A stretch of 64,000 bases of DNA from Rozella allomycis CSF55 (Eukaryota), in contig KE560523.1 in assembly GCA_000442015.1 (NCBI GenBank), forward strand, positions 1-64,000. The letters run 5' to 3'. Shown here piece by piece: positions 1,990 to 57,000 of this stretch. The notes under the pieces are model-generated. The model made no database searches, was not told where the DNA came from, and saw only the letters and a list, made by a program, of their open reading frames with translations. How positions within the stretch are numbered: the first letter of the stretch is position 1; the number at the start of each line of letters is the position of its first letter. The translations under genes and the position numbers were made by a program.

Positions 1990-4225
1990 TTAAAGTACAA
2001 GATGCCCAATTATTAATTCAATTATATTTTTGAATACCATTGCATTCCCTGATATCCGCCTAAATTTGATGCCGTGAATTTTAAGTAGCCAAACTTTGCA
2101 AATTTCAATTTCAAATACAACTTCCTGATTGACTCCAGAGACATATCGGCAATCAATAACGTAAGATGAATGATGGTTAAACATTAGGTTCTGCTGGGCC
2201 AAAATTTCTATCAATTGATTAATTAAATCATCGGGGGGCTTCACACTAGTCGTATTTGCGGAAAATGCGAATCTAACTGTACGAATCGGAGTTTGTCGAG
2301 GCACTTGAGTCGGAAAAGAAGGTGATATTTCAGGGCTGGGAATATCCGTCTCATAAACCACATTTGTGTTCACTTTTAATGAATCTCTTCTAGAACTATT
2401 GCTCTCTGACCTTGTTTCGAAGGATTTTCTTTGATAAGAATCTGAATTAGAGTTTGATTTTGGGCGCATTTTTGACGTCAGTGAAGCATTAGGTAATTGG
2501 CGCATAGGAGTTGTACCGAAATCTGCTTGAAATGTAAATCTTCGATTCCTTTGCATTGCTGGTTCTGGTGCTGCTAAAGTAAATCTGATATCTTTTTGTT
2601 CATTTGAAGACTTTCGACGAGCGTCAAGATTGTTGCCGCTTGCTAGCATAATGCCTTCCTTTTTATCTTCTAAACCAACATCAAAGTCCGAAGTTTCTGA
2701 CCTTGAACTAATGGTAGAAAATACACTTTGCTTTCTACCAGGAAGGTCAGTTGGCAGTAAGGAAGCTCGCCTGTCCATTGCTTTTATGGCATTCAATGAT
2801 TGCGTTATTGACTGTCTTCTATTTTGAATCATTCCCGGAGGTTGATTGAAGTTATAAATAACAACGTTATCAGACTCATGATTGATGCCTTGAATGCACC
2901 CACTGTATTTTTTATCCAAAGGAGTTTCATCTTCATTTAGAAACTTTGGTGGCAGACGTATCGGGGGGCCATTTTCATCTTTGATCACCCATGGATGATT
3001 TCTTAATTCCTCCATTTTAATTCTCTTTGAAGGATCCCTTACAAAAATTTTATTTAACAAATCAACAAACACTATTAATAACTGAAATGAGATATTACGT
3101 GGCGAAAGATTGTCAATTTTCCTATATTCGCATGATCTTATTTTTTTATATAACTCGCTCAAATTGTCGCCTTTGAAAGGGGCTTTCCCTGTCGCCATTA
3201 TGAACAAAACAACTCCGGAAGACCAAATGTCGCTTGGAGGACCAATATACTTTTCACCACTCACAATTTCAGGTGAAGCATAAAGCGGCGTACCACAAAA
3301 CTATATTAATAGTAACCGAAATTGTTACAGTCCCCAGTAAGTGATTTTTACCAATAAACGATCTACCGAGTCCAAAGTCTGATATTAATATATTATTGTC
3401 TTCAGTAAGCAACAAATTTTCCAGTTTTAAATCATCTTTAAATCGATATTATGTCTTACCTCGATGAACTACACCTGCTTCATGGCAATGGTCGATGGCT
3501 GAAATGATTTGTCGATACAATCGCCTGGAGTCTTTTTCAGTTAATGATTCTTTCGTGGTAATGTAGTCGATCAGCTCTCCACCTCCAGCATATTGCCTAA
3601 AAAATTCTAAAAAAGTTAGTACATTATAACGAACAATTCTGTCGGTGTATCAATTAATTGATAAAGTTTAACTATATTCGGATGATTTAATCTCATTAAT
3701 AACTTAACTTCTCCACTCAAATGCCTTAGGTACTCTGGGACGTAATTTGGATTTGTAATGGAGTATTTTGAATCATCTGCTTTTTTCGAAATAGAATTTA
3801 TCTCTTCAGTATTTGATATATTTTCGTTGGATTTTTTAATATCGCGTTCTTTTGTTTTCAACGTATTCGGTTCGGCTTGAGGTTCGGCTTCCTTCCCCGC
3901 CATATCCTTTACATCCTCTAGAGTATTCTCTTCTGGTATAACTGGCTCTTTTTTCCGGGAGACAACCTTGTCTTCAGAATGAACACTTTTTGAAAAATCA
4001 GATTTCACAGATTTGGAATCAATCTTTTGAGATTTCACGCTTTTATTTTCTGATGCTTCCATGTCAGCTTTCACGAGAACTTTTACAGCTACCTGAATGT
4101 TAAAAATGACCAATGTTCACCTTTTCATTTGTCACAATGTGATAACCAAGCTTTACTTTCGAAAAGGCGCCTTCGCCAATGGTACGACCTAGCTGATAAT
4201 CTCCGACAATTTTTCTCTTAAACAT
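1990..4225 (-). CDS. MARK/Par-1/Kin1-family Ser/Thr kinase with C-terminal KA1 domain
   Basis: GDYQLGRTIGEGAFSKVKLG, VAVK, HPNIVKL, HRD-LKLEN, DFG, FCGTPLYASPE, DIWSSGV; KA1 FEIEICKVWLLKIHGIKFRRISGN. Confidence 0.9.
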
Positions 4226-6405: not shown

Positions 6406-7054
6406 ATGCTAAGCGAAGAAGATGTTTTAGATTATGTAATACAACAGGGTAACAATGAAAACGGACTACCTGATTGTGCAAACAGTGTAGCTGAAAGCAT
6501 AAACCAGGACGAATCTAATCATGATAACCTAGTTTCATTGGAGCTACGTGAGCGCGAAAAAGGCTGCATTAAAATGTTTGAAGAAGGCAGTTGCTCATTA
6601 GATTACTTAATAAATGAGTTTTCATCAATCATCAAGGACCATCCACGTTATGCGTCAGCGTACAACAACAGGTACTGCTTTGATATTTTCAAAACTAGAG
6701 CTCAATGTTTTCGACTTCAAAAACAATGGGAGAAATCATTGAATGATTTGAACAAGGCTATCGAATTCGGAGACATTGAAGTAAAAAGAAAAGTAAGTTA
6801 CCATTTCGNCATTGCAGTAAAAAGAAAAGTAAGTTACAATTTCGCTATTTACCGAGGCTAATTTACAACGTGCTATTGTGAAACATCACTTAAACGATGA
6901 AGAAGGTTCGCATTTGGACTATGAAAATGCGTCTGCTTATGGTGGAGGAAACAATTTTCTTGCAAAGCAAATGGCGGTGAAAACCAACAAATATGCAGCA
7001 ATGTGCAATAGCATGATGGCCGAGTTGATGTCTAAATTATATAAGAATAAATAA
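6406..7054 (+). CDS. TTC36: TPR protein, TTC36-like
   Basis: YASAYNNRAQCFRL TPR and C-terminal KTNKYAAMCNSMMAELM typical of TTC36; N-join at 6809. Confidence 0.75.
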
Positions 7055-7071: not shown

Positions 7072-7784
7072 TTAGAATTTATATATTAGAAACAGAAACA
7101 TACACACAGCACCTACTAACGCCAATATAAGCATATCACGGCGACGTCGTAATCTAATGCGATTAATTAAGCCTTCAACGGCTGGAAGTCTTGCTAGAAA
7201 ATGAATATTCAATGAACTTACTAAGAACGCCAGAAGCAATATTTGATGAAGAAAGTAGTCTTTGTCTTTGAGTATCCAAATTTGCTCTTGTTGCATAAGC
7301 GTTACCTTAAAAAATGCAATATAAGATTACTTTAATAAGTCATCAGCCATTGAATGTGAATTGTCCAATGCCATCCGCTCATCTAGAAGCATCATTTCAT
7401 CTGTTTTATTTCCTCGTACATTTCTGTACTTTAAAATATAGTTATTTACTTGTTGTACGACTTTAAAAGTTCTTGTTCTTCTTTTTTCTGTCTAAGCACA
7501 TCTTGAATTCTTCTAAATTCTTTTTCATAGTTGAATGCACCATCCTTGTGTCTCTGGAGTGTTTTTAAAAGGATAGTGTTTTCTACAGGTAGACTTTCAA
7601 TGTATTGATTCATTTTTGCTATTTGATTATTTAAATTTGATAGGTTGGATATTATTTCTTGCGCCAAAGAATCAGTACCGGATAAATCAGTAGCCATCAA
7701 TGAAGTTATTTTGGATATCTGGTTATCTATAGCAAGTTCGACCATTCTCGTTTCTTTTCGTATACTGTCCCAAGATGTGTTCAT
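7072..7784 (-). CDS. GOS1: Golgi Qb-SNARE Gos1/GOSR1
   Basis: MNTSWDSIRKETRMVE, LQRHKD, ERMALDNSHSMADD..AYATR, RLPAVEGLINRIRLRRRRDMLILALV plus C-terminal TM. Confidence 0.9.
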
Positions 7785-13436: not shown

Positions 13437-13787
13437 TTACTCTTTCAGAAGTTTCTGTAATTTCCCACTGTTGAAAGCTTCATAAGTATCGTCGCATCCG
13501 CCTAGATGATTTCCCTTGATGAAAATATTTGGGACAGTTGTTTGGCCTGTCATTTTGGCCAGCTCGTTTTGTATTTCAGAACCGTTGCCTTTTTTAAAAT
13601 TAATACCAATATATACTTTCTTGGTCAAGTTCTAATGCAAAGTACGAAACATTGATGTTCTCAAACAACTTTTTCGCTTTTTTGCAGTAAGGGCAATAAG
13701 ATTTGCTAAATATCTTTGCTTTCATTTAGATTTGCTTATTACCATTACGTTATTTTCAGCTATTAACTTTTTCACTAGTGCGTTCAT
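13437..13787 (-). CDS. Dithiol glutaredoxin
   Basis: Spliced IFSKSYCPYCKKAK, TGQTTVPNIFIKGNHLGGCDD. Confidence 0.95.
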
Positions 13788-13855: not shown

Positions 13856-16287
13856 ATGCCAGAAGCGAAAGTAAAGAGGTAGAATGCAAAATGTTAAAAT
13901 GAAAGAAAAATTAAGCCTGGAAAAATTGATGTGCATCCAACCGATGATGCGATAATTGTAAACTATACAGTTGAAACACAACTGATTGATGAGCAAGATA
14001 TGGTCCAGGTGCAAAAATCAAGACAGCAAAAGTGGTAAGTATATATTTTAAGAGTTTATAGTATAAATGTGACAAATTTAAAAGATTTCGAATCTGATTT
14101 TGCGTCATTGGCATTGGAGATTGTTGAGCAATCTAAATTGATTCACCCATCAAAAGTAAAGGAGGTTGAACAACTACTTTATTACCTTTTGAAAAGAAAG
14201 AAGGAATCTTTGATGGGTAAATTTAAAGAGTTAATTTGATGTTAGAGACGGAGCAATTGTCCGCATTGGTATCTCAGATTTCAAAGACGAATTCAAATTC
14301 TGATGAGTTTATAAATGTATTTTAGTTCTTTAAATTTAAGAGGTGAATTTAGAGAACTTGGATGAATATATTGATCAGTTGTATGAAGATCTTGGCCAAA
14401 AGGTTGCAGGTACGAAATGCTTGTATTTTCTGGCTCACACGATGGATAATTTGTATGAATTGATTGTCAATGGTAAATGGATTATATTGCTAAAAGAAGA
14501 ATCATTTATGAATGCCGTTACGAGAGTATTATTGGAAGATGGAAGAAAGAGTATTGATTTGACATTTAACATTTGTTTTATTTTTTCTAATTTTTCATTA
14601 TATTCAGATTTCCATTCGATTATTCATCAATATAAATTGATTGATTTGATGTTGAAAACTTTTAATTTTGAAATGAAGCGTGGCGAAGTTATTTTAAGGG
14701 AAGGGTCATCGAAACAAAAAGCGTTACAAAAGCATAACAAATTGATGTGTGGTAAAATAAAGAATATACAGAAATTAGTGTTAATAAATTTCTTCTTGAA
14801 TGTTAGTGAAGATATCTCGGTTGAAATGTCACTAGCAAAAGACTCGATGATTTCTAGATTATTGACCCTTGTTTTAAGAGAAAATTCAGACCTTCAGATT
14901 ATTTCATTAATTTATTTAACAAAACTCTGCGTATTTCAAGAAAACATTAAAGTTTTGATTAATGATTCTGAATCTCTATGTAATTCTATTGAGAGTTTAT
15001 TTTCTTCAAAATCAATCGTAGAGATTATTGAATAGAAATAATTGTAGGAGGTTTTAAAAATTTCCGTTCGATTTCTTTTAAATATTTGTCATGAAGTTCA
15101 AATCAGATTAATTTTATCGAGATTGAATATTCTTCCAAAAATAATCCAAATTTTAAACTATCCGATTTCACCAGAACCAATTCTTTGTTTATTGTACTTG
15201 TTGAGTATTGATGACAAGGCTAAATCGTTCTTTGCGTTTACTGAGATTGTCCCATTTGTAAACCAATTTTAATATTGTTGAATTAGTTGATGAAAAATAT
15301 TTTAGAATGCCCAGATCAAAAATTACCATTTGAGCTTATGGGTTTATCAATAAATATTGCTTCAAACCCACAAGTGGCAGAATTGATTGTTCAAAATAAC
15401 GGTCTAAAGTTCTTAATAAAGAAAGCAACAAAAACTCTTGATAATCTTTTACTTAAATTTATTCGCAATTTATGCCAACATGATCTCACTAAATCTCTAA
15501 TTTTGGTAACATTTATTCTACTTTATTACAGGATTATCTTGATGAATTAATGATTCTTCTTGTTCATGAAACTAATCAAGATGTTTTTATAGAACTATTA
15601 GGAATATTAGCAGCTATAGACATTGAAGGAATGGATTATGCGAAATTGGTAGACAACTATGATCTACTTGCATTTATAAACCAACTAATCATAAACAATG
15701 AATGTGATGATGACATTATATTGGAAGCTGTTATTTTCTTTGGAGTTTTACTACGTAAACATTTCATTCACTTTAAACCATTTAGAAGATGAGGCTGTGG
15801 TATTGAAAGTATTGCAGTCTAAAATCTTTGATAGTCTTTTCACTCTTTTATCTAGAAAGAAATATGATGAAGAAATTATATTTCAAGTCATTTATGCTTT
15901 TNTTCAAGTTATTTATGCTTTTTACAATATTCTTCTATTTGAATTCTCTCATCCAAAAATTATTGAAAGCAAAGGTATCTTTCCACATTAATATTATTAG
16001 ATTTGACCACCACACTGCTTGATTTCATGTATCACAACCGTCAAGATATCAGAATATTATGCGACACTTGTTTAGATATCATTGCCGTAAATTGTCACGT
16101 CCTTTGTTTCTTATAGGATGTCGATCAAGAACAACATGAAAAAATTAAACAGCAAAGATTCCATTGGCACAATCAAGAATGGATAAACTGTGTTGAAAAC
16201 AACATGGAAGAAGAATTTTCAGATAACGACGTTGATGATGAACTTTACTTTGGTCAAAATTTTATGCTGGAAGGACCAGATTTTTGA
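13856..16287 (+). CDS. KIFAP3: Kinesin-associated protein 3 (IFT kinesin-2 accessory subunit)
   Basis: KRKIKPGKIDVHPTDDAIIVNY, KLIHPSKVKEVEQLLYYL, LDEYIDQLYED, EDGRKSIDL, RFHWHNQEW; more than 10 mini-introns. Confidence 0.92.
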
Positions 16288-17478: not shown

Positions 17479-18231
17479 ATGACATCGAATCAAGAATACA
17501 AAGGCGCGGGAGAGGCTAAAAAGAACACGTAATATTGAATACCGTGTTTAATATAGTGTATTTGTAAAGGTTGGGATGGTTGGTGATAGTCAAATTGGCA
17601 AAACATCACTAATGGTTAAATATGTAGAGGGAACATTCGACGAAGACTACATTCAAACACTCGGTAAAAGGAAGTTATTTTAATAAAAGGTGTTAATTTT
17701 ATGGAAAAGACAATTTCGATTCGTAACACGGAAATCACATTCTCTATTTGGGATCTAGGAGGTACAAAATTTGTATAGTCTACATTAGGCCAGAAAGAAT
17801 TCATCAATATGTTACCATTAGTATGCAATGACGCTATAGCGATTTTGTTTATGTTTGATCTGTCACGAAAATCAACATTGAATAGCATCAAGGAATGGTA
17901 TAGACAGGCTCGAGGATTCAACAAAGTAAAAATTGTACATTGTGAAAATTCTAGTCGGCAATTCCCTTTTTGATCGGAACTAAATACGACCAATTTACTC
18001 AATTGTCCCGGGAAGAACAAGAAGATGTCACCATGCAGGTAAACTCGTGAATGTTTAGGAAATCAGTCTCGAAGATTCGCAAAAGCAATGAAGGCGCCAT
18101 TGATATTCTGTAGCAGCGCTAGAAATATAAATGTACAAAAAATTTTCAAGATTGTATTGAGCAAAGCATTTGATCTAAAATGTTCTATACCCCGGGAAGA
18201 AACAATCGGTGCACCCATAATTGAATATTAA
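17479..18231 (+). CDS. TEM1: Tem1/Spg1 septation/mitotic-exit GTPase (missed by the ORF track)
   Basis: [66 protein letters not shown]; 5 mini-introns. Confidence 0.95.
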
Positions 18232-19356: not shown

Positions 19357-21473
<2,117 letters not shown>

Positions 21474-21513
21474 ACACTGTTTATATATTTTACGAAATTT
21501 TCTTTTTTCTTTC

Positions 21514-22581
21514 ATGGCTATCTTGGAGGTAAATTTACTACATCTAAGGCATTAAGATACTTTCAGTCATAGCATTGCTAACTACTCCATTCATTTTACT
21601 ATTTTTAAATATCTTTATATTCATTCATTACCCATGGATCTTTCCAATTTATTATATAGTCCGCTTTATTCTTCTTTCATCTCACAAAGATTATACATCA
21701 ACTAAATTAAGATCAATGGCTTTATTTAATCATGCAAGAGATTATTTCCCAGTCTCTATAAATATTGAAAGAGCCAAGGAACTGGACCCAGAAAAAAGTT
21801 ACATGATTGGATACCATCCACATGGAATCATTGGTATAGGATGCCTTGTGAATTTTATGTCCGAAGCAAACAACATTTCCAGCATTTATCCTGATCATAA
21901 CATTAGAGTCGCAACATTGAATATGCATTTTGCATTTCCAATCTGGTCAGAATATTTCAAGGCGCTAGGGTTCATTTCAGCCAATAAAAGCTCTATTAAA
22001 AATCATTTAACTAGAAAGTGTTCAAAGGGCAAAAAGTACTCTGTCGTAATTGTAGTTGGCGGGGCGTCGGAAGCGTTGGTAAACAATCGCAGAGTGTTTA
22101 AAAGGATGCACATCCAGGTACATTGGATTTGACTCTGAAGAAAAGAAAAGGTTTTTTTAAACTAGCACTACAGACTGGGTAATATGACATAATGAATGAT
22201 AAAGCACCTCCCTGGTACCCTGTTTATCATTCGGAGAAAATGATGTCTTTAATCAGATAAACAATGGACATGGAACCTTTCTTAGAAAAGCACAAAAATG
22301 GCTGACAAAGATATTCACATTCTCATTGCCTTTGGTTTATGGCCATGGGAAACTAATGTGTATGCCCGCCAAAACGCCAATCACGACCATTAGTAAAATA
22401 CGCAAGATAAAATTAAACAGTGGGGAGACCCGTGATTGTCAAGGAGCCCATTGAACATCCTACCGCAAATGAAATCTTAGAGTTGCAAGAAAGATATATG
22501 GCTGAACTAAAGGCAGTATTTGACGAACATAAAGAAAAATTGGGAAAGAATTTGAAAACTCCATTAAGATTTGTGCATTGA
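21514..22581 (+). CDS. DGA1: Diacylglycerol acyltransferase DGAT2 family
   Basis: N-terminal TM, RDYFP, GYHPHGI, IVVGGASEAL, KRKGFFKLAL, LVPCLSFGEND. Confidence 0.92.
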
Positions 22582-22634
22582 TTAGTAACTTGAAATAAAT
22601 AGTTTACGGATGGTCCTTTTTGTAAAATTCCTAG

Positions 22635-24948
<2,314 letters not shown>

Positions 24949-25590: not shown

Positions 25591-26842
25591 TCATTCAGTC
25601 TCAAGAAGTCTATTTATCTTGGCTAACTGACTTGAAGCACTCAAAGTAAACTTATTCTTTTCACCTAATTGTGATCGATACAGTTCATATGCCTTTGAAA
25701 CAGCAGGAATAGCTTGTCTAGCTACTTCTTTATAAATATGACGTGGTATCTACTAAAATTCAGTTCCATAAATATTACTTCATGCTTTAATCTTTCATGC
25801 ATACCTTTTCCTTTTCTTTTAAGTCTTGCATTATGAGATACAATCGACTATTTAAATATCTCTTCCAATTTTACCGTCACAGCACTAACAATTGAACGCT
25901 TCCTATCGACATTCTTTCCTGGCGATTGTTCAGCATTCCTTGGTATCAATAGAGATCTACCATCCATTGATATTTGTGAACCTCTTCTATGAAGTCCTTT
26001 TTCGACAGGTAAATGAGGTGAGCCTGGAACTAATATCTCCAATGTGTTGGGGCTTGTTGGCCTTTCAGCATCCTTGCTATGGTCTTCAAAAACAAATGAT
26101 TCTAACGTGACCATAGGAAAATCAGCTTTCGGTTCCTCAAGAGTAATCTCTGGTGATTTTCGAACACTTTCTGTCTCGTCGTCAAGACGTTGCTTCATAA
26201 ACCATTCAGTAACTTTGCTCACAGTAGATGATGAATGACCTTCAGTCAATGTTTTGGTGGAAAACACGTCCAGTTGGCTAGACGCACTGGTGAATCTTGG
26301 CGGTTTCATCGTATCTTGTTCCAAAACAAGTTATATTTTACTTTGCATAAGTGATCCTTCCAAAGATTTAATAGTCTTAAAATTCCCTGTACTAGCAGCT
26401 ATTTCACCATCATCTGCATTGATAATTAGCTCAGGTACTTTCCATGCTAGCTTTTCTTCGTCTACAGTATTATCAACTCTTGACTGCATGACAGAGGATT
26501 GCTTTGAATCATCCGAAAATATGAATAATTGGCTTTTTGTTCTGACTTTACTCGTTAAACCATCTACGGCGTTAAGAATTTTGTCGTAACGTCCCTCATT
26601 GCTTTCAAATGAGAGCTGCTTATAAAGTGTTTGACTTCGTTTGAGAAGACTCTCTAAAGAAATTAACTTGGCAGAATCGTACCTTTAGATGACTTACATT
26701 TTCCAAGCGCCAGGGCTATTACTGGGTCTACTTCGCGATCGATAAATTCCTTTGAAGTATAATACTCAAAGTTTGGATTAAACCTTAAAATTTCGTTTAT
26801 GTCACATTCTTGTCTTCCTCGTCCAAATAAGTAGTCACTCAT
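25591..26842 (-). CDS. Hypothetical protein
   Basis: Continuous frame from MSDYLFGRG across mini-introns into ORF 25848-26324; no family recognised. Confidence 0.45.
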
Positions 26843-26937: not shown

Positions 26938-27010
26938 GCCCGGCTAGCTCAATCGGCAGAGCGTGAGACTCTTAATCTCAAGGTTGCGAGTTCGACCCTC
27001 GCGTTGGGTG
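26938..27010 (+). tRNA. tRNA-Lys (anticodon CTT)
   Basis: GCCCGGCTAGCTCAATCGGCAGAGC..CT-CTT-AA..GGTTGCGAGTTCGACCCTCGCGTTGGGTG cloverleaf, 73 nt, followed by a T-run. Confidence 0.96.
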
Positions 27011-29584: not shown

Positions 29585-29659
29585 GCTAAAATTAAAAGTA
29601 TAGAAATAAATCTTCATTTTTTGGTTACTAAAGTAATTTTTTTGACATAAATTTCCAGT

Positions 29660-30590: not shown

Positions 30591-30866
30591 ATTTCATAGC
30601 ATTTTTGACATGTAAGGTCCATCTAATTCGTATCCCAACTTTCTGTAATAATGCCTTGTTCCTACACCTGCTATTACAGCAAGTTTCTTTGATCCATGCT
30701 CGTCTCTAGCAATTCTTTCTGCTTCNCCATTTCATAGCATTTTTGACATATAAGGTCCATCTAATTCGTAACCCAACTTTCTGTAATAATGCCTGGTTCC
30801 TACACCTGCTATGACAGCAAGTTTCTTTGATCCATGCTCGTCTCTAGCAATTCTTTCTGCTTCTTC
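30591..30866. repeat. Diverged ~135-bp duplicate across a single N (probable allelic assembly join); the same pattern occurs at N5500, 6809, 10779, 15902, 37500, 42385, 46515, 58745 and 60628
   Basis: The two copies flank N30726 and differ only at four synonymous third positions of ELP3. Confidence 0.85.
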
Positions 30867-32526
30867 CATTAATAAGGTTCCGAATCCCTTAGATTAACAC
30901 ATTGAATCTTTTATACTTGATGTTGAAACTTAACAGGGTCTCTGCTGTGAAGTGGAACGACACTTCCATAAACGTGCAATTCACGAACAACAGAGCAAGC
31001 CCCTTGTAATTCTGGTCTAAATGTAGCATCCCCACATTTTCGGAGTCGTAAAAGACCAATTAGAATATCTTGTTGTGGATCTTCATATGAGAGAAAAGTT
31101 TCCCATCCATTATTAGCCGCATAGTCACGTCGAATTAATTCCACTTGGTCAGGTTTCACCTTGTGATGAATATCTTGAATGCCTTGTTTCAATACTCTCT
31201 AATTCTTACCAACTTCGCGCGTTCTCACATCTCTACAAGTCGATCCAAGATCTCTCATCCTCTCTAAAGCTAATTCTCTCAGGTTGCCATGTTCAACTCC
31301 AGAAGTAACCAAAGGCATTGGAATATCTCGTTGAACACGATAAATTCTCATCCAAGGTGGAACCATGGCTAGAATTTTCGCTATTAAATCAACAAGAGCA
31401 TTAGGAGAATAATTTTTATATCTTCCTGTCCTCCATAATTCATACAATCCAGTTCCTCGAATTACAAGGGTCGGGTAAAGCTTTAAGCCATCAGGCCTAA
31501 AATCAGGATTCTCAAAGAATTCCTTAAATTGTTCTAAATCTCTTTCCATTCCAACGTTAGGTAAGTCAGGCATCATGTGAGCTACAATCTATAAATAATT
31601 TTACTTATATATTCCTACTTTATAACCAGCGTCTTTAGTAAGTTGAAAGCATTCTATCACCGATTTGACAGTATGCCCTCTGTTAGTGTCTCTGGCAACA
31701 TCTTCATAAACAGATTGCACACCAATCTCCAATCGAGTACATCCATATCTTAACATTTGGGAAATATGTGGCTTCAAACAATAATCAGGACGTGTCTCAA
31801 TTGTTATCCCGATACATTTTGTTTTGCTTTGCTCAGAAAATCTTATAATTACACAAATCAAAATCTATTACTTGACGGCTTCGTCGACATTTCTAGATAC
31901 ATGCCCTGATAAGGAATCATGAAGGTTTCGCATAAAATAATCTCGATAATCTTCTGAAAGGCACATAAAAGTCCCTCCCATAACAATAAACTCTACCTTG
32001 TCAACTGTATGTCCAAGCGATTCAAGTTGGTCAACACGTTGTCTAGCTTGTTCATAAGGATCATATCTAGCTCTGATTGCTCTCATTGAAGTGGGTTCAT
32101 AGCCAGTATAGGATTGGGTGGAATAATCAAAATCGGAGTCCGGACCCCCGGGACAATACACACATATATTTCCAGTCATAGCAATGTGGGGGCATCTATG
32201 CGGTTTTGACATAACAGCAACAACGGCTATACCACTGGCCGTTCTAATAGGTTTTGCTTTCAATCTTTTTCATCTATATAAAACACTTACTTGGGTAAAA
32301 GCACAGTTTTATAATTTTCTGGTATTGCTGCAATAATATCAACAAGTTTTGGTTGTGTTGGTAATTTGTATTGTCTAGAAACACGGGATTTCACTCCATT
32401 CAAGTTTACATCGCGATTTTCTTTGTGGGCTTTTATAAGTTCAGAGACAATATCTGAACATGCTCGCACAAGCTTAGTAGCACAGACATTTTCTGTGTTA
32501 TTTTTCTTGTATAATTTACCTTTCAT
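30594..32526 (-). CDS. ELP3: Elongator complex protein 3 (radical SAM / acetyltransferase)
   Basis: [50 protein letters not shown]; 3' end duplicated across N30726. Confidence 0.98.
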
Positions 32527-38164: not shown

Positions 38165-38230
38165 TCACGTGTATTTATTGAAAAAGGAAGCTAATTGAAA
38201 ATGACCGGGGTCACCCTTGTAGCTATAAAA
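38165..38230 (+). promoter_or_regulatory. Putative NTT promoter elements: CACGTG E-box, TGACC-GG-GGTCA palindrome, TATAAAA
   Basis: CACGTG 38165-38170, inverted repeat 38202-38213, TATAAAA 38224-38230 about 30 bp upstream of ATG 38261. Confidence 0.35.
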
Positions 38231-38260
38231 GCCTCCATTTTTTCTCAGCACCCCTGTCTG

Positions 38261-39994
38261 ATGTCTGCTATTGAAAAGTCTGCACCTGACGCTGTCAGGA
38301 AGCCAACCCTCAGAGAAAGGTTTTGGCCTATTGAAAGTCATGAACACAAGAAATTAGTTCCACTTATTTTGATGATGTTCTTGATCTGTTTTTCGTACAC
38401 TCTCTTGCGTGATTTGAAGGATGTTATGGTGTTGCAAATTGGAACATCCGAGTCTATTTCTTATATGAAGTTGGGAGGAGTATTGCCATCGTCTGTTATT
38501 TTTATGATGATTTTTACAAAGTTGTCTATCAAGAATACAAAGAAGTTTGTCTTTTACTCTATGTTATCTATCTTTATGGTTGTTTTCGGACTTATTTTGG
38601 TCTTGACCTTTTTTGGAGACCATGTTCACCCAGAACCAGGTTCTTTGACTAAAGGAGTTACTGGAGGATTATTGCCAGTGTTAGTTTTATTGGAAAAGTG
38701 GACTGTTGTTCCAATCTATATCTTTGCTGAAATGTACGGAACAGTTTGTTTGTCTTTGTTGTTTTGGGGATTTGCCAATGATATCTGTACTGTCAATGAA
38801 GCACGTAGATTTTATCCATTGATCAGTTTGTTTGCTAATGTTGCATTGGTTATTCTTATGTTTGTCATGGTTGGATTGAACGACTTTGTTAAGAACAGCA
38901 AGGATTTGTTTTGTCAAATTTCACTTGTCCTCGTCCTTGTCTTTGGTGCGATGGTTGCTTATATCTACAATTACATGCAAAAGAATGTTTTGACTGATCC
39001 AGTGTTGTACAACCCAGACTTGTTGAAGCCAAAGAAGAAGAAGGCTAAGATGGGAATGATTCAATCATTGAAGTTTGTTTTGTCTAGTGGATACGTTGCA
39101 AAGATTGCTGTTATTGTTGTTGCTTATGGTATGGTCATTAACTTTTTGGAAATCTACTACAAGAACGTTATCGGATTGTACTGGCTTGCTTCATTGGTTA
39201 CTGCTAAGGGTGTTGAATCTGGTCTTACTGGATTTATGGTTATTATTTTGTCTTTGAGCATTGGATCTACTGCTGTTAAGAGATTTGGATGGACCAAGAC
39301 TGCTTTGGTTACTCCTTTGATTATTGGAGGACTTGGAATTCCATTTTTGGGTATTGAATGGTACTACAAGCAACCTTTGATGGAAATGGGATCTCTCTTT
39401 GGTTCATTCAAGGGTGTTGATGGAAGAAAGTCAATCAGCGCTACCTACAAATTTATTAAAGACAAACCAGAAATTGTTAAAGAAATGATTGAATTGAAAT
39501 GGTTGACCGAAAGTGGTGAAAAGATTGACGGAATTAAATTCCCTGAAAAGAAACAACAAACTGAACAACAAAAGGAAACAATGAAGAAAATCGCTGATGT
39601 TATCGCTGATGAATTGACTGGACATGAAAGCTACAGCATTGTTACTCCAATTTACCTCTTTGGTTTCTTGGCTGTTGTCTTTGCTAAATCATTCAAATAC
39701 TCATTCTTTGATCCAACCAAGGAAATGGCTTACATTCCTTTAGATGATGAAGTTCGTGGTAAATCAAAGGCTGCTGTTGATGTCGTTGCTGCTCGTTTCG
39801 GTAAGTCCGGTGCTTCTGGTATCTTCGTTCTCTTCAACACTATCATCAATCCAAATTCATTGAACTATGTGTACATTATCCTTATTCTCTTTATCATTGT
39901 CTTTCTTTCCTGGATGTCCTCCACTGTTATGCTCGGTCGTGAGTTCAACAGACTCAACCAAAAGAAAAACGAAGTCCAAATGACTAAAGTTTAA
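38261..39994 (+). CDS. NTT: TLC/NTT family ATP/ADP nucleotide transporter
   Basis: Multi-TM protein with YTLLRDLKD, AEMYG..LSLLFWGFAND, EARRFYP, KYSFFDPTKEMAYIPLD, GKSKAAVDVVAARFGKSG; intronless. Confidence 0.96.
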   Translation: MSAIEKSAPDAVRKPTLRERFWPIESHEHKKLVPLILMMFLICFSYTLLRDLKDVMVLQIGTSESISYMKLGGVLPSSVIFMMIFTKLSIKNTKKFVFYSMLSIFMVVFGLILVLTFFGDHVHPEPGSLTKGVTGGLLPVLVLLEKWTVVPIYIFAEMYGTVCLSLLFWGFANDICTVNEARRFYPLISLFANVALVILMFVMVGLNDFVKNSKDLFCQISLVLVLVFGAMVAYIYNYMQKNVLTDPVLYNPDLLKPKKKKAKMGMIQSLKFVLSSGYVAKIAVIVVAYGMVINFLEIYYKNVIGLYWLASLVTAKGVESGLTGFMVIILSLSIGSTAVKRFGWTKTALVTPLIIGGLGIPFLGIEWYYKQPLMEMGSLFGSFKGVDGRKSISATYKFIKDKPEIVKEMIELKWLTESGEKIDGIKFPEKKQQTEQQKETMKKIADVIADELTGHESYSIVTPIYLFGFLAVVFAKSFKYSFFDPTKEMAYIPLDDEVRGKSKAAVDVVAARFGKSGASGIFVLFNTIINPNSLNYVYIILILFIIVFLSWMSSTVMLGREFNRLNQKKNEVQMTKV

Positions 39995-45223: not shown

Positions 45224-45296
45224 CACCCAACGCGAGGGTCGAACTCGCAACCTTGAGATTAAGAGTCTCACGCTCTGCCGATTGAGCTAGCCGGGC
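45224..45296 (-). tRNA. tRNA-Lys (anticodon CTT), identical to 26938-27010
   Basis: Exact reverse complement of the 73-nt tRNA at 26938. Confidence 0.96.
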
Positions 45297-49904: not shown

Positions 49905-50878
49905 CTACTTATTTTTGGTCACAAGTGAATTATAATGTGCACCAAGTCGATAATAATGCAGGTGATATCTATGTGAGAAAAATAAACTTTAATACGATAG
50001 CGAAAGAGTATCGGGTGAATCGTAATCAGGATTCATTTCAATTGGCGATTGCAATCCTGCTTGATATATCTTTATTTTCAACTTGAGTGATTTCGCAATT
50101 GCTTGAACCTTCGCTACGTTCAAATTTTATATATTACCTCAATTTGACCACCCCAGGTTGCTGTTTCAACAATATTTTTGCAATACTTTTCAAAAGAATC
50201 TATAGGAAGGAGAGACTAGGTGCCTACGATCGTTTAAAATATCGCCGTTATCATCATACAAAAAAGGGATGAAATCATCCTTATGATCTTTGATGTAATC
50301 TGATGCAACTTTTCGTAAATCATCCACCGAGTAATCTTGATTGAGGTGAATCTTAATTTGATGCGAAATAGAATTATAAAGACAATGACCGTCCGCGGGA
50401 ATCTATTTTGATCGTTAAATACGTATGTGGTACGTCAAAAATCAATAGTCCTAAAGGATCTAAAATTCTTTGAAGATCATTCAGTTCTTTTTCACGCCGA
50501 TTCACAATTGGATCCTCCATAGATGCCGCATTTTTCATATCCTCTAATTCTTGTTTTTTCTTCATCTGAACTAATGATGAAATACTTTCTTACTTTTCTT
50601 TTCTGCTGACGAGAAACTCTTTTTGGCTGAATTTCATCCACGATTGAGGAACTCTCACTTACCACGGGTTGAGAATCAGACACTGACGTCATAATATTTT
50701 TTAACTCTAAACCATGCCTTTCTTTAATCTCTTTTTCCATATCCTCGATATTTTTGAGAAGATCCTTTTTCTTCATCTTAACCTGTCCGGAAGAAACAGC
50801 TTTCTTCAACGATATAATTTTGGAATTTAGGTCTTTAATCTCTGCCTTATGTCTTGCTTGGAGTTCTTCAAGCTCCAT
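49905..50878 (-). CDS. OTU2: OTU deubiquitinase Otu2/OTUD6B
   Basis: RHKAEIKDL N-terminus, IPADGHCLYNSI, WGGQIE, SYHLHYYRLGAHYNSL. Confidence 0.93.
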
Positions 50879-51940: not shown

Positions 51941-52639
<699 letters not shown>

Positions 52640-54015: not shown

Positions 54016-57000
54016 TTATTGAAATTTCCATTCAATGATTTCGTTTCTTGAACAAGTGAGAAGCCAATCTAAATTTGAATCCAAAATAACAAATTTGGCT
54101 TCTTCACTGTGAGCCAGAATATCATGAAATGCGCCAGACTCTAAATCAATTGCAGTGATGAATGGCGAATTATTGCACGCACCAATGGCAAAATTCATAC
54201 ATGGAGAAATTTCAAGTGAATTTAAAACTCTTGGCAATTTCAAAGTTCTAAAAACCTGCTTTAGATTAATTTATAGTTAATACTTTCCGTTCAGGTATTG
54301 AATACATTTGGATTACTGCATTGGAGCTTGTCAACACTATTGAATCGTGGCCAATGAATGCACCAATTAAATTTCCCGTCTAATCAGCAAAGATAAAACA
54401 TAATTTACATTTAAATTATTGAATGTGATCCAATCCACTAGTAAATAATCATTAGAGGTCCAATTCATTTCCCACAATGATGAACGATGGTCGCTGCAAC
54501 AAACAAGCATAAACGAACAATTTTCTTTGAATGGATGATCTTTGATATTTATGCAATTTATTTCAGATCCCTTGTGTTCTTTAAGAACATTGAGAGTGGC
54601 TCCAGTGTGAACATTTGACAAGCTGACAAACCCTTGATCGTTTCCACTAATTAAAATTGAATCATTTAATAGATTGAAATATTTTTTACTTGAATAAAAT
54701 TTAATGTTTGTTATTTTTGATTTGCTTGGTTGGAATTCGCTAATCTTTTTTTCAGTTTCAATGTCAAAGACTTTGATTGAACCATCACTGAATCCTACAG
54801 CTACCAGAGTTTCATTGGAAAGAGAAATTGATGAACAATTCTTATTTAAATTATTAAAAGAATTTTACTTTTAAATCTTCAATGTTTAAAGTTTTGCAAT
54901 GCCATTCATCATCAATTTTGGTTCTTAAACAAAGTTTTCCATTTTCATGAATTGACGCAACAATAGAATCATTGCTAGTAATATCTACTAGATTTTGAAA
55001 GGAAGAAATAAATTCAACAATTTCATTTCCATCCTTTTCAGACGCTTGCCAAATAGACCCATCGCTTAAACAAACAAACCCCTTCCATTTAAAATTGAAT
55101 GCTTATTTACATCGTTGTTATCATTGAAATCAATTAATTCAATTGAAAGATTAAAATTCTTTTCAAAGATTAAAGAAACTTCATTTTCTATAAAATTTTG
55201 TTCATGTTTCTCAACCCATTCAGCAATTTTCCAACACCGCAAAGATCCATTCAAATTTCCAGTAAAGATTTTCCTGTCAATTACATAAAGAGAATCTTTT
55301 AAATACTTTTAATTAGAATTACTTATTGCAATGTTATCAACAGACCATGAGAGAATGCATTGACCTTTCCTTGAATCCCATAATCCAACCAAACCATTAT
55401 TGGTGGTTGTTATTAAAAGATTGCTGGAATCTTGTTTGAATTTTATATTTGTAAATTCACATTCTGTCCAATCACAAGGCAAAATAGATTCTCTCTACCA
55501 TTTGAACATTATTTCATTTCATACCATGAAAGTCAATTTCTCATTGTAAATTCTCCAGAATAATAATTTATTTTTACAACAAACAACAAATTCATTATCA
55601 CAGTTGGGATCAAATTCAAAATTTTTAATCTCTTCATCCAAATCAACTGTAGAATGTATCACCCCTGAATTATAGTTTATTAAATTCATTTGATTGGAAA
55701 CAACAAGAATAAATGGATTATTAGGAACAAATTTTATAAATTTTATATAATCAGAATTGCAAGTTAAAATTCTTTCACAAATTGCTGTTTCCAAATTCCA
55801 AAGTCTAATTATAGAACCCCGGTTTCTAGATTCAACAGCCGCTAAAATAATCTTTTAAAAGGAATTACCAATGTATTCCATATTGCAACAAAAAGAAGAA
55901 ATTTTGTTTACATAATTTGAAGCTTCTCTGTAAATTTTCTGATTTTGTGTGGCAATCTCTTCAGCTACAATTAAATTCCCACAAGAATAAATTATTTGAT
56001 TATTCTTTTAAGGATGTCAATGTAAATTTACTGATTTGTTCCAATGAAAGGGTGTTTGAATTGTTGACTGTGAAGATAAAACTTTAACGATTGAAACACA
56101 ACAATCTTCACTTGGCACAAGAAAACTAATTTTAAAATAGATTTAATAAATTACGCATCTTGAGTTGTTAATTCCTTTATTTCACTTGTTTCAATTTCAT
56201 TAAATTCTATTTCTGGTTCTGGTAATGCAATTTGTTGTGGTAATTCGATTTGTGGATCCTTCCTTGTAAGGTTAAGAATGGAATATTCTAGAATGACGCC
56301 ACTTGTATAGAAAATGTAAAGATTATTTTTAATGATTGAAAGATCAAGAATATTTGAATTTGGTATTAAGATTCTCTAATAGAATTGAAAAAGAAAAAGA
56401 TTTACTTGTGGGAGTGTGAGCTTGTCTGAAATGATTGAAATGTTTAATTCATTAGGATATTCATTTAAAATGTAGAAAATTTTATTCTCATTGAATGTGA
56501 AATGTTTAATTGTTTCGTCTGATTTGAAAATGTTAATCTTTCTTGTAACTTTAAATGATTCTCTATCAACAAATAAAATTAATCCATTTCTATAAACAAA
56601 TATGGCACTCTTTAAACTCATCAAACATAGATTTACTTTATAATATTTAGAATAGAAAATCTTTAAAACATTTCTAGCGTCAATCTTTATTTTCCCAATT
56701 TCATCACTCTCAAAATCTCTCAAAATAAAATAATCTTCAACCCCTTCATACCCATGCAATATAACAGATCCCAATGTAGAAACTAAACTAAACTTTCTTT
56801 ATAATCAAAACACAAAACTAATACCCTCTCCAATCTTTTTTAACAATGCCACACTTTTTAAACCCATTTTGATCTATTTTATAAAATACTAGTTTTGTTT
56901 CTCCAAACGTCATAAAACTTTTTTCATCGTCGGAGATTAAAATTCTAGTAACACGTGAGTTGTGTGGCTTTTGTTCTGAAATATATTTAGAATTGAAATC

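What the first reader, a model, noticed from the sequence alone, without database searches (positions are those of the whole stretch)
50109..50137. Ruler-like 3' splice-site selection in tiny introns
Seen: across roughly a hundred introns that I could fix by protein conservation, lengths cluster at 25-32 nt with no obvious polypyrimidine tract or fixed branch motif. AAG and even GAG acceptors are frequent. Good AGs at 24 nt or less are bypassed where frame demands it: OTU2 skips TAG at +24 for GAAG at +29; glutaredoxin 13714-13742 skips AAG at +24; KAP3 14317-14342 skips AAG at +24 for GAG at +26; ELP3 32265-32290 skips TAG at +17. Inference: a minimum of about 25 nt and distance-based acceptor choice, which would explain both the non-AG acceptors and the double intron.
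Basis: partly seen in the sequence, partly recalled or inferred. Interest (0 to 1): 0.7.

Follow-up and report, generated by a model that had tools for sequence, protein, structure and literature searches.

The report
Tiny Rozella introns with fixed geometry
The genes in this stretch of the fungal parasite Rozella allomycis are interrupted by very small introns of 26 to 31 bases, whose end appears to be chosen by position, as the first AG after a likely branch adenine 23 bases from the intron start.

Summary
The window is Rozella allomycis CSF55 nuclear DNA. A gene finder with a flat length prior of 15-120 nt gave 141 introns of 26-31 nt. Every other length sat at background, including 25 nt. 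All four cited introns are real. Junctions in ELP3 (5 of 5), DHX35 (8 of 8) and KAP3 align to homologues.

AG dinucleotides inside the introns occur at the background rate of 3.5% up to position +24. From +25 on there is 1 in 368 places, against 13 expected. "First AG ending at +26 or later" picks the acceptor in 136 of 137 introns.

A at +23 occurs in 99 of 137 introns (background 35%) and T at +21 in 75 of 137, counted from the 5' end in every length class. This is a UNA branch-like motif. The "ruler" is therefore most likely a fixed spacing from the 5' splice site to the branch point, followed by ordinary first-AG choice 3-8 nt downstream.

GAG acceptors are rare, not frequent. No RNA data could be found, so the branch point is inferred. 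This is a new variant of the known tiny-intron regimes.

The parts
50109..50137 (-). OTU2 intron, 29 nt. TAG at +24 skipped and AAG at +29 used. Positions 23-24 are AG, so the skipped AG's A is the putative branch A.
   Evidence: (weak); frame logic
49969..49995 (-). Last OTU2 intron, 27 nt. It restores the C-terminal ...LGAHYNSL OTU motif.
13714..13742 (-). Glutaredoxin intron, 29 nt. AAG at +8 and at +24 skipped.
13589..13616 (-). Second glutaredoxin intron, 28 nt.
14035..14061 (+). KAP3 intron, 27 nt. AGs at +18 and +20 skipped.
14217..14245 (+). KAP3 intron, 29 nt. The junction lies in a variable region.
14317..14342 (+). KAP3 intron, 26 nt, with a GAG acceptor. TAG at +9 and AAG at +24 skipped.
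   Evidence: also used in public model P0121
15018..15047 (+). KAP3 intron, 30 nt.
   Evidence: gapless junction
15258..15286 (+). KAP3 intron, 29 nt.
   Evidence: gapless junction
15506..15531 (+). KAP3 intron, 26 nt.
   Evidence: gapless junction
15755..15785 (+). KAP3 intron, 31 nt (TAG). The gene finder's 34-nt choice leaves a 1-residue gap against all homologues.
15975..16000 (+). KAP3 intron, 26 nt.
16087..16116 (+). KAP3 intron, 30 nt.
17762..17788 (+). Small-GTPase intron, 27 nt. It keeps the WDLGGQKEF motif, which the gene finder's 36-nt choice deletes (GQK lost).
22789..22817 (+). DHX35 intron, 29 nt. TAG at +21 skipped.
22889..22915 (+). DHX35 intron, 27 nt, inside the GSGKTTQ motif region.
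23212..23240 (+). DHX35 intron, 29 nt, after DEAHERS.
23274..23301 (+). DHX35 intron, 28 nt. TAG at +17 skipped.
23602..23628 (+). DHX35 intron, 27 nt, in a variable region.
23901..23926 (+). DHX35 intron, 26 nt, inside QRAGRAGR. AAG at +21 skipped.
24238..24265 (+). DHX35 intron, 28 nt. AGs at +11 and +14 skipped.
24435..24460 (+). DHX35 intron, 26 nt.
32265..32290 (-). ELP3 intron, 26 nt, with an AAG acceptor. TAG at +17 skipped.
31842..31871 (-). ELP3 intron, 30 nt.
31589..31618 (-). ELP3 intron, 30 nt.
31183..31209 (-). ELP3 intron, 27 nt (AAG). The public model removes 36 nt here and loses the conserved GIQ.
30888..30916 (-). ELP3 intron, 29 nt.
52374..52400 (-). Rab-type GTPase intron, 27 nt, upstream of a 30-nt micro-exon (52344-52373) that encodes QERFRTITT.
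52318..52343 (-). Rab-type GTPase intron, 26 nt, downstream of the micro-exon.
55842..55868 (-). WDR90-like gene intron, 27 nt. It replaces the gene finder's 60-nt call. AAG at +17 skipped.
25750..25778 (-). The single exception to the rule. It has tandem TAG-TAG at +26 and +29, both in frame. The gene finder chose +29. There is no A at +23, and the A at +25 could be the branch.
3433..3459 (-). Kinase catalytic-loop intron. Either 27 nt ending in TG, which gives HRDLKLENLL, or 24 nt ending in AG (3436-3459), which gives HRDDLK. No AG lies between +26 and +59.
7301..7330 (-). Unresolved site. A GTA donor has AAG at +25 followed directly by GTAAC, with no AG at +26 to +31. All three downstream frames are open.

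Best explanation
These are ordinary U2-type GT-AG introns of Rozella allomycis that have shrunk to a fixed geometry.

The donor is GTA (usually GTAA). The spliceosome appears to use as branch point an adenine about 23 nt from the 5' end, sometimes 24, in a weak U-N-A context. The spacing seems to be set by how closely the 5' splice site and the U2-bound branch site can be held together, not by a strong sequence motif.

The acceptor is then the first AG whose G lies at least 3 nt after that adenine, which means +26 or later. Selection keeps one within about 8 nt. AGs at +24 or before lie upstream of, or overlap, the branch adenine. They are invisible to the second step, and this is why they occur at background frequency and are skipped.

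Shown: the length window, the AG cut-off, the 5'-anchored A/T signal and the exon junctions. Inferred: that A+23 is the branch nucleotide, and that the spacing is a steric ruler.
For: Organism: P0001 'Elongator complex protein 3 [Rozella allomycis CSF55]' is 99% identical to the exon query.

Length window:
- The window appears without a length prior.
- 141 introns are 26-31 nt, against 51 spread over lengths 16-118.
- Several of those 51 resolve into tiny introns around small exons.

Junctions:
- ELP3: 5 of 5 are gapless against 6 homologues.
- DHX35: 8 of 8 fit 9 homologues, 7 of them in conserved motifs.
- KAP3: 5 are gapless, and one was corrected from 34 to 31 nt.
- In two cases homology overruled a longer choice in favour of the first AG at +26 or later. 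These are 31183-31209 against the public 36-nt model, and 15755-15785.

Acceptor rule:
- The first AG ending at or after k fits 136 of 137 introns for k = 25 or 26.
- It fits 131 for k = 24, 112 for k = 20, 85 for k = 12 and 96 for k = 27.
- AG frequency is 3.5% up to +24, then 1 of 368 places against 13.0 expected (P = 3e-5).

Branch-like signal anchored to the 5' end:
- A at +23 occurs in 37/41, 13/25, 22/30, 18/25, 6/9 and 3/7 introns of 26 to 31 nt. Background A is 0.35.
- No 3'-anchored position exceeds 0.48 in introns of 27 nt or more, and 0 of 5000 shuffles reach 0.64.
- T at +21 occurs in 75 of 137.
- The A signal does not depend on codon phase: 48/65, 26/36 and 26/38. It is therefore not a stop-codon effect.
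- The 27-nt introns that lack A23 mostly have A24.

In the 30 introns supported by homology or motifs, 20 have A23 and 25 have A23 or A24. Of their 30 skipped AGs, none is at +25 or later.

The short branch-to-AG spacing matches the microsporidian search pattern GTA[AG]GT...TAATT N(0-4) AG quoted in PMC3486916.
Against: No RNA evidence exists here. No RNA run was found to hold the sequence, and the one run laid gave no spliced contig. Splice sites rest on reading frame and homology, and the branch point on statistics alone.

Other weaknesses:
- 38 of 137 introns lack A at +23.
- The 31-nt class shows the signal in only 3 of 7.
- The sequence motif is weak in 75% A+T introns.
- Most of the 137 boundaries come from my own gene finder. 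Its acceptor matrix was trained on the same introns, although it is 3'-aligned and does not favour A at -6 or -7.
- Introns whose length is a multiple of three and that carry no stop codon cannot be seen by this method.
- Three sites do not fit a simple AG rule: 3433-3459, 7301-7330 and 25750-25778.
- Only 64 kb of one genome was analysed.
Confidence: 0.6

Rival explanations
1. A pure donor-to-acceptor ruler. The second-step site is chosen by its distance from the 5' splice site, whatever the branch sequence. When no AG lies in the +26 to +31 window, a non-AG dinucleotide is used.
For: The length window is sharp, and the rule fits 136 of 137 introns.

In the kinase intron 3433-3459, Pfam places R at HMM position 122 and the second D at 123. 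Only a 27-nt intron ending in TG gives the canonical HRDLK. No AG lies between +26 and +59.

At 7301-7330 no AG lies at +26 to +31.
Against: The A at +23 and T at +21 signal is unexplained by a blind ruler.

A gene finder allowing non-AG ends at a penalty produced only 5 candidates. I judged at least one, 29633-29659, to be a merger of two genes, and none is supported by homology.

The kinase case has an AG alternative at +24 that costs one inserted residue.

There is no RNA evidence.
Confidence: 0.15
2. Conventional 3'-anchored architecture. The branch point sits at a fixed short distance upstream of the acceptor, as in intron-poor protists and microsporidia. The narrow length range simply reflects deletion pressure. 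The apparent +23 signal would come from the abundant 26-nt class.
For: In 26-nt introns, +23 is the same position as -4, where A occurs in 37 of 41. Microsporidian and Giardia/Trichomonas introns are described as 3'-anchored (PMC10946202 passages).
Against: With the 26-nt class excluded, A at +23 is still 62 of 96. The best 3'-anchored position reaches only 0.48, and A at -4 falls to 13/30, 5/25 and 3/9 in the 28-, 29- and 30-nt classes.

AG frequency drops at a fixed 5' coordinate, between +24 and +25, not at a fixed distance from the 3' end.
Confidence: 0.12
3. An artefact of gene-model inference. The boundaries are mis-set by my frame-based finder, and the regularities reflect its scoring.
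For: The finder made errors, all towards other lengths. They include 34 for 31 nt, 36 for 27 nt, 60 for 27 nt, 83 for 27+30+26, and several false long introns that merge genes.
Against: The length peak appears in a plain enumeration of GT...AG pairs that bridge ORFs, with no scoring: 26:44, 28:45 and 29:30, against 25:11 and 23:8.

The junctions in ELP3, DHX35 and KAP3 that homologues could test agree at residue level.

Every correction moved an intron into the 26-31 window and onto the first AG at +26 or later.
Confidence: 0.05

Closest known systems
Short introns of Microsporidia (Encephalitozoon cuniculi and relatives), the sister lineage of Rozella
   Same: The introns are very short: 22-76 nt in E. 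cuniculi (PMC3629993 passage). The donor starts GTA. The branch adenine lies only a few bases before the AG. The search pattern quoted in PMC3486916 is GTA[AG]GT...TAATT N(0-4) AG with a '3 nt threshold'.
   Different: Microsporidia have few introns, and these carry strict 5' and branch motifs. This window has about 140 introns in 64 kb with degenerate signals. PMC6349667 notes that two ~30-nt R. allomycis S23 introns lack the microsporidian motifs. In Rozella the branch-like A is fixed relative to the 5' end. Lee et al. [quoted passage not shown]
Tiny-intron regimes of ciliates (Paramecium about 25 nt, Stentor and Blepharisma 15-16 nt), the Bigelowiella nucleomorph (18-21 nt) and mikrocytids (16-17 nt)
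   Same: Many introns share a narrow, single-peaked length range, are AT-rich and have weak signals. [quoted passage not shown]
   Different: This is a different lineage (Fungi/Rozellomycota) and a different window (26-31 nt). The published logos I saw described are for single size classes, which cannot tell 5' from 3' anchoring. Here six size classes show that the A is 5'-anchored. The nucleomorph has no discernible branch A.
Choice of the first AG downstream of the branch point, with bypass of AGs too close to it (the classical scanning or 'AG exclusion zone' model in yeast and mammals; recalled, not read here)
   Same: There is no AG between the putative branch A and the acceptor (1 of 368 places). 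AGs upstream of or overlapping the branch are ignored. No acceptor is used at branch +1 or +2, since there are no 24- or 25-nt introns above background.
   Different: The branch-to-AG distance is only 3-8 nt. There is no polypyrimidine tract. The branch position itself appears to be set by distance from the donor.
Ultra-short introns of myxozoans and Dicyema (median 22-27 bp; PMC13644364, abstract and introduction read)
   Same: Convergent shrinkage below 30 nt in parasites, with reduced splice-site motifs.
   Different: These are animals. The introduction of that paper lists ciliates, Microsporidia and dicyemids as the known exceptions and does not name Rozella. I saw no acceptor-choice rule in the parts I read.

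Membership tests
U2-type GT-AG spliceosomal introns | GT (GU) at the 5' end and AG at the 3' end | tested here: met
   All 137 introns, but by construction of the finder. Independently, 21 junctions fixed by homologues have GT...AG ends.
U2-type GT-AG spliceosomal introns | Removal restores a continuous reading frame that matches homologous proteins | tested here: met
   ELP3 5 of 5, DHX35 8 of 8 and KAP3 junctions. Glutaredoxin.
U2-type GT-AG spliceosomal introns | A branch-point adenosine upstream of the acceptor that forms a lariat | tested here: inconclusive
   There is a statistical A at +23 with T at +21. Lariat formation cannot be tested with these tools.
U2-type GT-AG spliceosomal introns | Spliced form present in RNA | not testable with these tools
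   No RNA run was found to hold the sequence. Run X1 gave no spliced contig.
Tiny-intron regime (Paramecium, Stentor, nucleomorph, mikrocytid type) | Single-peaked, very narrow length distribution below about 35 nt covering nearly all introns | tested here: met
   141 introns are 26-31 nt. Other lengths are at background, and several resolve into tiny introns.
Tiny-intron regime (Paramecium, Stentor, nucleomorph, mikrocytid type) | Introns more AT-rich than exons, with reduced splice signals | tested here: met
   Intron GC is 0.246 against 0.31-0.36 for the window. Information content is low outside GTA, A23 and AG.
Tiny-intron regime (Paramecium, Stentor, nucleomorph, mikrocytid type) | Deficit of introns whose length is a multiple of three and that lack stop codons (translational control of retention) | tested here: inconclusive
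   32 of 33 such introns carry an in-frame stop. The finder cannot see those without a stop, so the count is biased.
Microsporidian short-intron architecture | Strict extended donor GTA[AG]GT | tested here: not met
   Position 5 is G in 19% and position 6 is T in 43% of 139 introns.
Microsporidian short-intron architecture | Strict TAATT-type branch motif | tested here: not met
   Only T21 (55%) and A23 (72%) are enriched. The commonest 4-mer at positions 21-24 is TAAA, in 15 of 139.
Microsporidian short-intron architecture | AG within a few bases of the branch adenine | tested here: met
   The acceptor G lies 3-8 nt after +23 in all 137 introns. This holds only if A23 is the branch.
Microsporidian short-intron architecture | Few introns per genome | tested here: not met
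   About 140 introns in 64 kb. PMC8476143 gives 2.53 introns per kb of coding sequence for R. allomycis.
First-AG-after-branch acceptor choice | No AG between the branch and the used acceptor; AGs upstream of the branch are ignored | tested here: met
   1 of 368 places from +25 on, against 92 of 2603 up to +24.

The most novel reading that the evidence does not exclude
In Rozella the second catalytic step may be positioned by geometry alone. The spliceosome would cut 3-8 nt after a branch adenine that is itself placed by a 23-nt ruler from the donor. Where no AG lies in that window, it would still splice at a non-AG dinucleotide, such as TG at 3433 in the kinase HRD loop. That would make this an intron-rich natural system in which distance overrides the near-universal AG rule.
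Probability: 0.2. Interest if true: 0.75.

Novelty: new variant of a known kind. Interest (0 to 1): 0.5.

Why it matters
How spliceosomes recognise introns far shorter than the spliceosome itself is an open question. PMC8997360's abstract says the mechanisms are 'poorly understood' for Paramecium, and the nucleomorph shows no visible branch site.

Rozella offers about 2.5 such introns per kb of coding sequence, spread over six length classes. That spread allows 5' and 3' anchoring to be told apart, which species with a single size class cannot do. The result is a simple, testable rule: branch at +23, first AG at +26 or later.

The rule has practical value. Public R. allomycis gene models break it and lose conserved residues. 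The ELP3 model drops GIQ, and a 1248-residue model fuses a kinase, a DGAT and DHX35. Re-annotation with a 26-31 nt intron model should repair many genes.

It also suggests that intron miniaturisation with a branch close to the acceptor predates the split between Rozella and Microsporidia.

Tried and rejected
- **Whole genome:** none is held for this window. No genome-wide logos and no inventory of U2AF, SF1, Slu7, Prp18 or the U2 snRNA could be made.
- **RNA evidence:** no RNA holder was listed. The one run offered (X1, a metatranscriptome with the same species label) gave a single chimeric contig, with 21-22 nt touching two places, and no joints.
- **Rfam on the window:** only two tRNAs and no snRNA.
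- **Earlier scan notes:** none for this genome. The word search returned only Ostreococcus notes, which do not bear on this.
- **Alternative genetic codes:** the standard code fits and no reassignment is needed.
- **Word-indexed KAP3 search:** it found only the Rozella protein itself. The exhaustive representative search supplied the homologues.
- **PDB check of the OTU2 junction:** the upstream exon matched Otu2 weakly (E = 0.94). The downstream exon matched nothing.
- **Metagenome scan for relatives with the same intron type:** 80 ELP3 loci were fetched. None had 20-35 nt gaps, so there is no comparative test.
- **Non-AG gene finder:** 5 candidates, none convincing.
- **Stop-codon explanation for T21/A23:** rejected, because the signal does not depend on phase.
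- **Literature:** six accepted full-text searches found no paper describing Rozella intron length classes, branch position or acceptor choice. James et al. 2013 (the genome paper) was never looked up. Lee et al. 2010 (PMC3809491) was not held. Their texts and supplements, which I could not see, may contain intron statistics.

Full report
**What the window is.** The 64-kb window has 31-36% G+C and reads with the standard code. It is densely packed with short exons. Pfam hits on 150 ORF fragments show a flagellated eukaryote with a chlamydia-type TLC nucleotide transporter. They include KAP3, a WDR90-like gene, ELP3, OTU, ClpP, a DEAH helicase and MARK-type kinases. The ELP3 exon is 99% identical to 'Elongator complex protein 3 [Rozella allomycis CSF55]' (P0001), and KAP3 and DHX35 hits carry the same organism name. 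The window is therefore R. allomycis nuclear DNA. No whole genome is held, and no RNA run was found to hold the sequence.

**The four cited introns.** All four are at the stated coordinates.
- OTU2, 50109-50137 (-), is 29 nt. The upstream frame stops 16 nt into it. The TAG at +24 would shift the frame, and only the AAG at +29 restores it. The upstream exon ends WGGQIE, like PDB Otu2, but that match is weak.
- Glutaredoxin, 13714-13742 (-), is 29 nt. Only this choice yields a 97-residue CPYC glutaredoxin. The AAG at +24 gives a frameshift and an early stop. The first residue of exon 2 aligns to Pfam position 3.
- KAP3, 14317-14342 (+), is 26 nt with a GAG acceptor.
- ELP3, 32265-32290 (-), is 26 nt, and its junction is gapless against six homologues.

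**A systematic intron set.** A plain enumeration of all GT...AG pairs that bridge two ORFs, with no scoring, already peaks at 26, 28 and 29 nt. The counts are 44, 45 and 30 candidates, against 11 at 25 nt and 8 at 23 nt. An EM-trained splice-site model without a length term gave 26:26, 27:14, 28:16, 29:13, 30:10 and none at 25.

A dynamic-programming gene finder with a flat 15-120 nt length prior, reduced to 41 non-overlapping models, gave 26:44, 27:24, 28:32, 29:25, 30:10 and 31:7. Every other length had about 1-2. I then made two corrections from homology and dropped 4 of 141 introns lying within 60 nt of an N. The working set is 137 introns. The 51 calls of other lengths are noise or mis-modelling. 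The ones I inspected resolve into tiny introns around small exons or into gene mergers:
- An 83-nt call in a Rab gene is 27 nt, a 30-nt exon encoding QERFRTITT, and 26 nt.
- A 60-nt call is a 27-nt intron.
- A 36-nt call is a 27-nt intron that keeps WDLGGQKEF.
- An 88-nt call begins with the 27-nt last OTU2 intron.

**Independent validation.**
- ELP3: 5 of 5 junctions are gapless against six homologues.
- DHX35: 8 of 8 against nine homologues, seven of them inside conserved motifs.
- KAP3: five junctions are gapless in conserved context.
- Twice, homology overruled a longer intron in favour of the first AG at +26 or later. The public ELP3 model removes 36 nt at 31175-31210 and loses the conserved GIQ, while the 27-nt intron keeps it. 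My finder's 34-nt KAP3 intron leaves a one-residue gap that the 31-nt version fills.

**The acceptor rule.** Internal AGs occur at 68 of 1918 places for G positions 6-19 and at 24 of 685 for 20-24, both 3.5%. From +25 on the count is 1 of 368, against 13.0 expected (P = 3e-5). The rule 'first AG ending at or after k' recovers 85 of 137 acceptors for k = 12, 112 for k = 20, 131 for k = 24, 136 for k = 25 or 26, and 96 for k = 27. Of the 25 skipped AGs at +20 to +24 in the 139-intron set, 19 would shift the frame, 3 would run into a stop and 3 are ambiguous. The one exception, 25750-25778, is an in-frame TAG-TAG pair that I cannot resolve.

Aligned from the 5' end, position +23 is A in 99 of 137 introns, against a background of 0.35, and +21 is T in 75 of 137. 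The A is present in every length class: 37/41, 13/25, 22/30, 18/25, 6/9 and 3/7 for 26 to 31 nt. It therefore moves from -4 to -8 relative to the acceptor.
- With the 26-nt class excluded it is 62 of 96 (p = 5e-9).
- No 3'-anchored position exceeds 0.48, and 0 of 5000 shuffles reach the observed value.
- The signal does not depend on codon phase, so it is not an in-frame stop codon.
- The acceptor matrix of my finder is 3'-aligned and cannot create it.
- The 27-nt introns without A23 mostly have A24.

U-N-A is the minimal branch-site consensus (established knowledge). In OTU2, glutaredoxin and KAP3 14317-14342, the skipped AG at +24 has its A at +23.

**Mechanism.** The simplest reading is a branch adenine held about 23 nt from the donor, a spacing probably at the steric minimum for this spliceosome. 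The first AG at least 3 nt downstream then serves as acceptor. This explains four things: the hard minimum of 26 nt, the absence of 24- and 25-nt introns, the invisibility of earlier AGs, and the lack of a polypyrimidine tract (pyrimidine fraction 0.51 against 0.54). The branch identity and the steric ruler are inferences. Nothing here shows a lariat.

**Open exceptions.**
- In the kinase at 3433-3459, Pfam aligns R to HMM position 122 and the second D to 123. The canonical HRDLK needs a 27-nt intron ending in TG. The AG at +24 would insert a D, and no AG lies between +26 and +59.
- At 7301-7330 an AAG at +25 is followed directly by GTAAC, and all three downstream frames are open.
A finder that allowed non-AG ends found nothing convincing.

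**Comparison with what is known.** Tiny-intron regimes are known in ciliates, the chlorarachniophyte nucleomorph, mikrocytids, microsporidia, dicyemids and myxozoans (passages read). [quoted passage not shown] The microsporidian pattern places AG 0-4 nt after TAATT.

For Rozella I found only two remarks. One says two S23 introns are about 30 nt and lack the microsporidian motifs. The other gives a density of 2.53 introns per kb. A 2026 survey of introns below 30 bp does not list Rozella in its introduction. Six accepted full-text searches found no description of the length window, the 5'-anchored A or the acceptor rule. The genome paper (James et al. 2013) was never looked up, and Lee et al. 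2010 was not held, so a prior statement there cannot be excluded.

**Verdict.** The 'ruler' idea is right in effect, but it is best restated as a 5'-anchored branch point plus ordinary first-AG choice. This is a new variant of a known kind. Interest is moderate (0.5), limited by the lack of RNA and branch-mapping data and by the 64-kb sample.

Noticed in passing
31175-31210 (-), 30597-30890 (-), and P0271 covering about 19357-24948 (+): Public R. allomycis gene models look damaged by the tiny introns. The ELP3 model (P0001) removes 36 nt and loses the conserved GIQ. It also carries a duplicated C-terminal segment around the N at 30726. A 1248-residue model (P0271) fuses a kinase, a DGAT and the DHX35 helicase.
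   Followed up: partly
Ns at 6809, 10779, 15902, 46515, 58745, 60628: Six of the 12 single Ns are flanked by imperfect direct duplications of 11-33 nt. These look like badly merged assembly joins and create small duplicated peptide segments, for example QVIYAF-X-QVIYAF in KAP3.
   Followed up: partly
38195-39991 (+): A TLC ATP/ADP transporter of bacterial (chlamydia-like) type is a single 599-codon ORF with no intron, in a window that averages more than 2 introns per kb.
   Followed up: no
52344-52373 (-): A 30-nt micro-exon encoding QERFRTITT of a Rab-type GTPase is flanked by 27-nt and 26-nt introns.
   Followed up: partly
26938-27010 (+) and 45224-45296 (-): Two tRNA-Lys(CTT) genes have the same length and the same Rfam score.
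   Followed up: no
3433-3459 (-): An intron splits the kinase HRD catalytic loop. The canonical HRDLK needs a TG acceptor at +27, while the only nearby AG (+24) would insert an extra Asp.
   Followed up: partly
7301-7330 (-): A GTA donor has an AAG at +25 followed immediately by a second GTAAC, and all three downstream frames are open.
   Followed up: partly
L065 and L071 (compost metagenome contigs): ELP3 loci from another organism carry four 40-49 nt introns each. This is a different short-intron organism, not Rozella-like.
   Followed up: no
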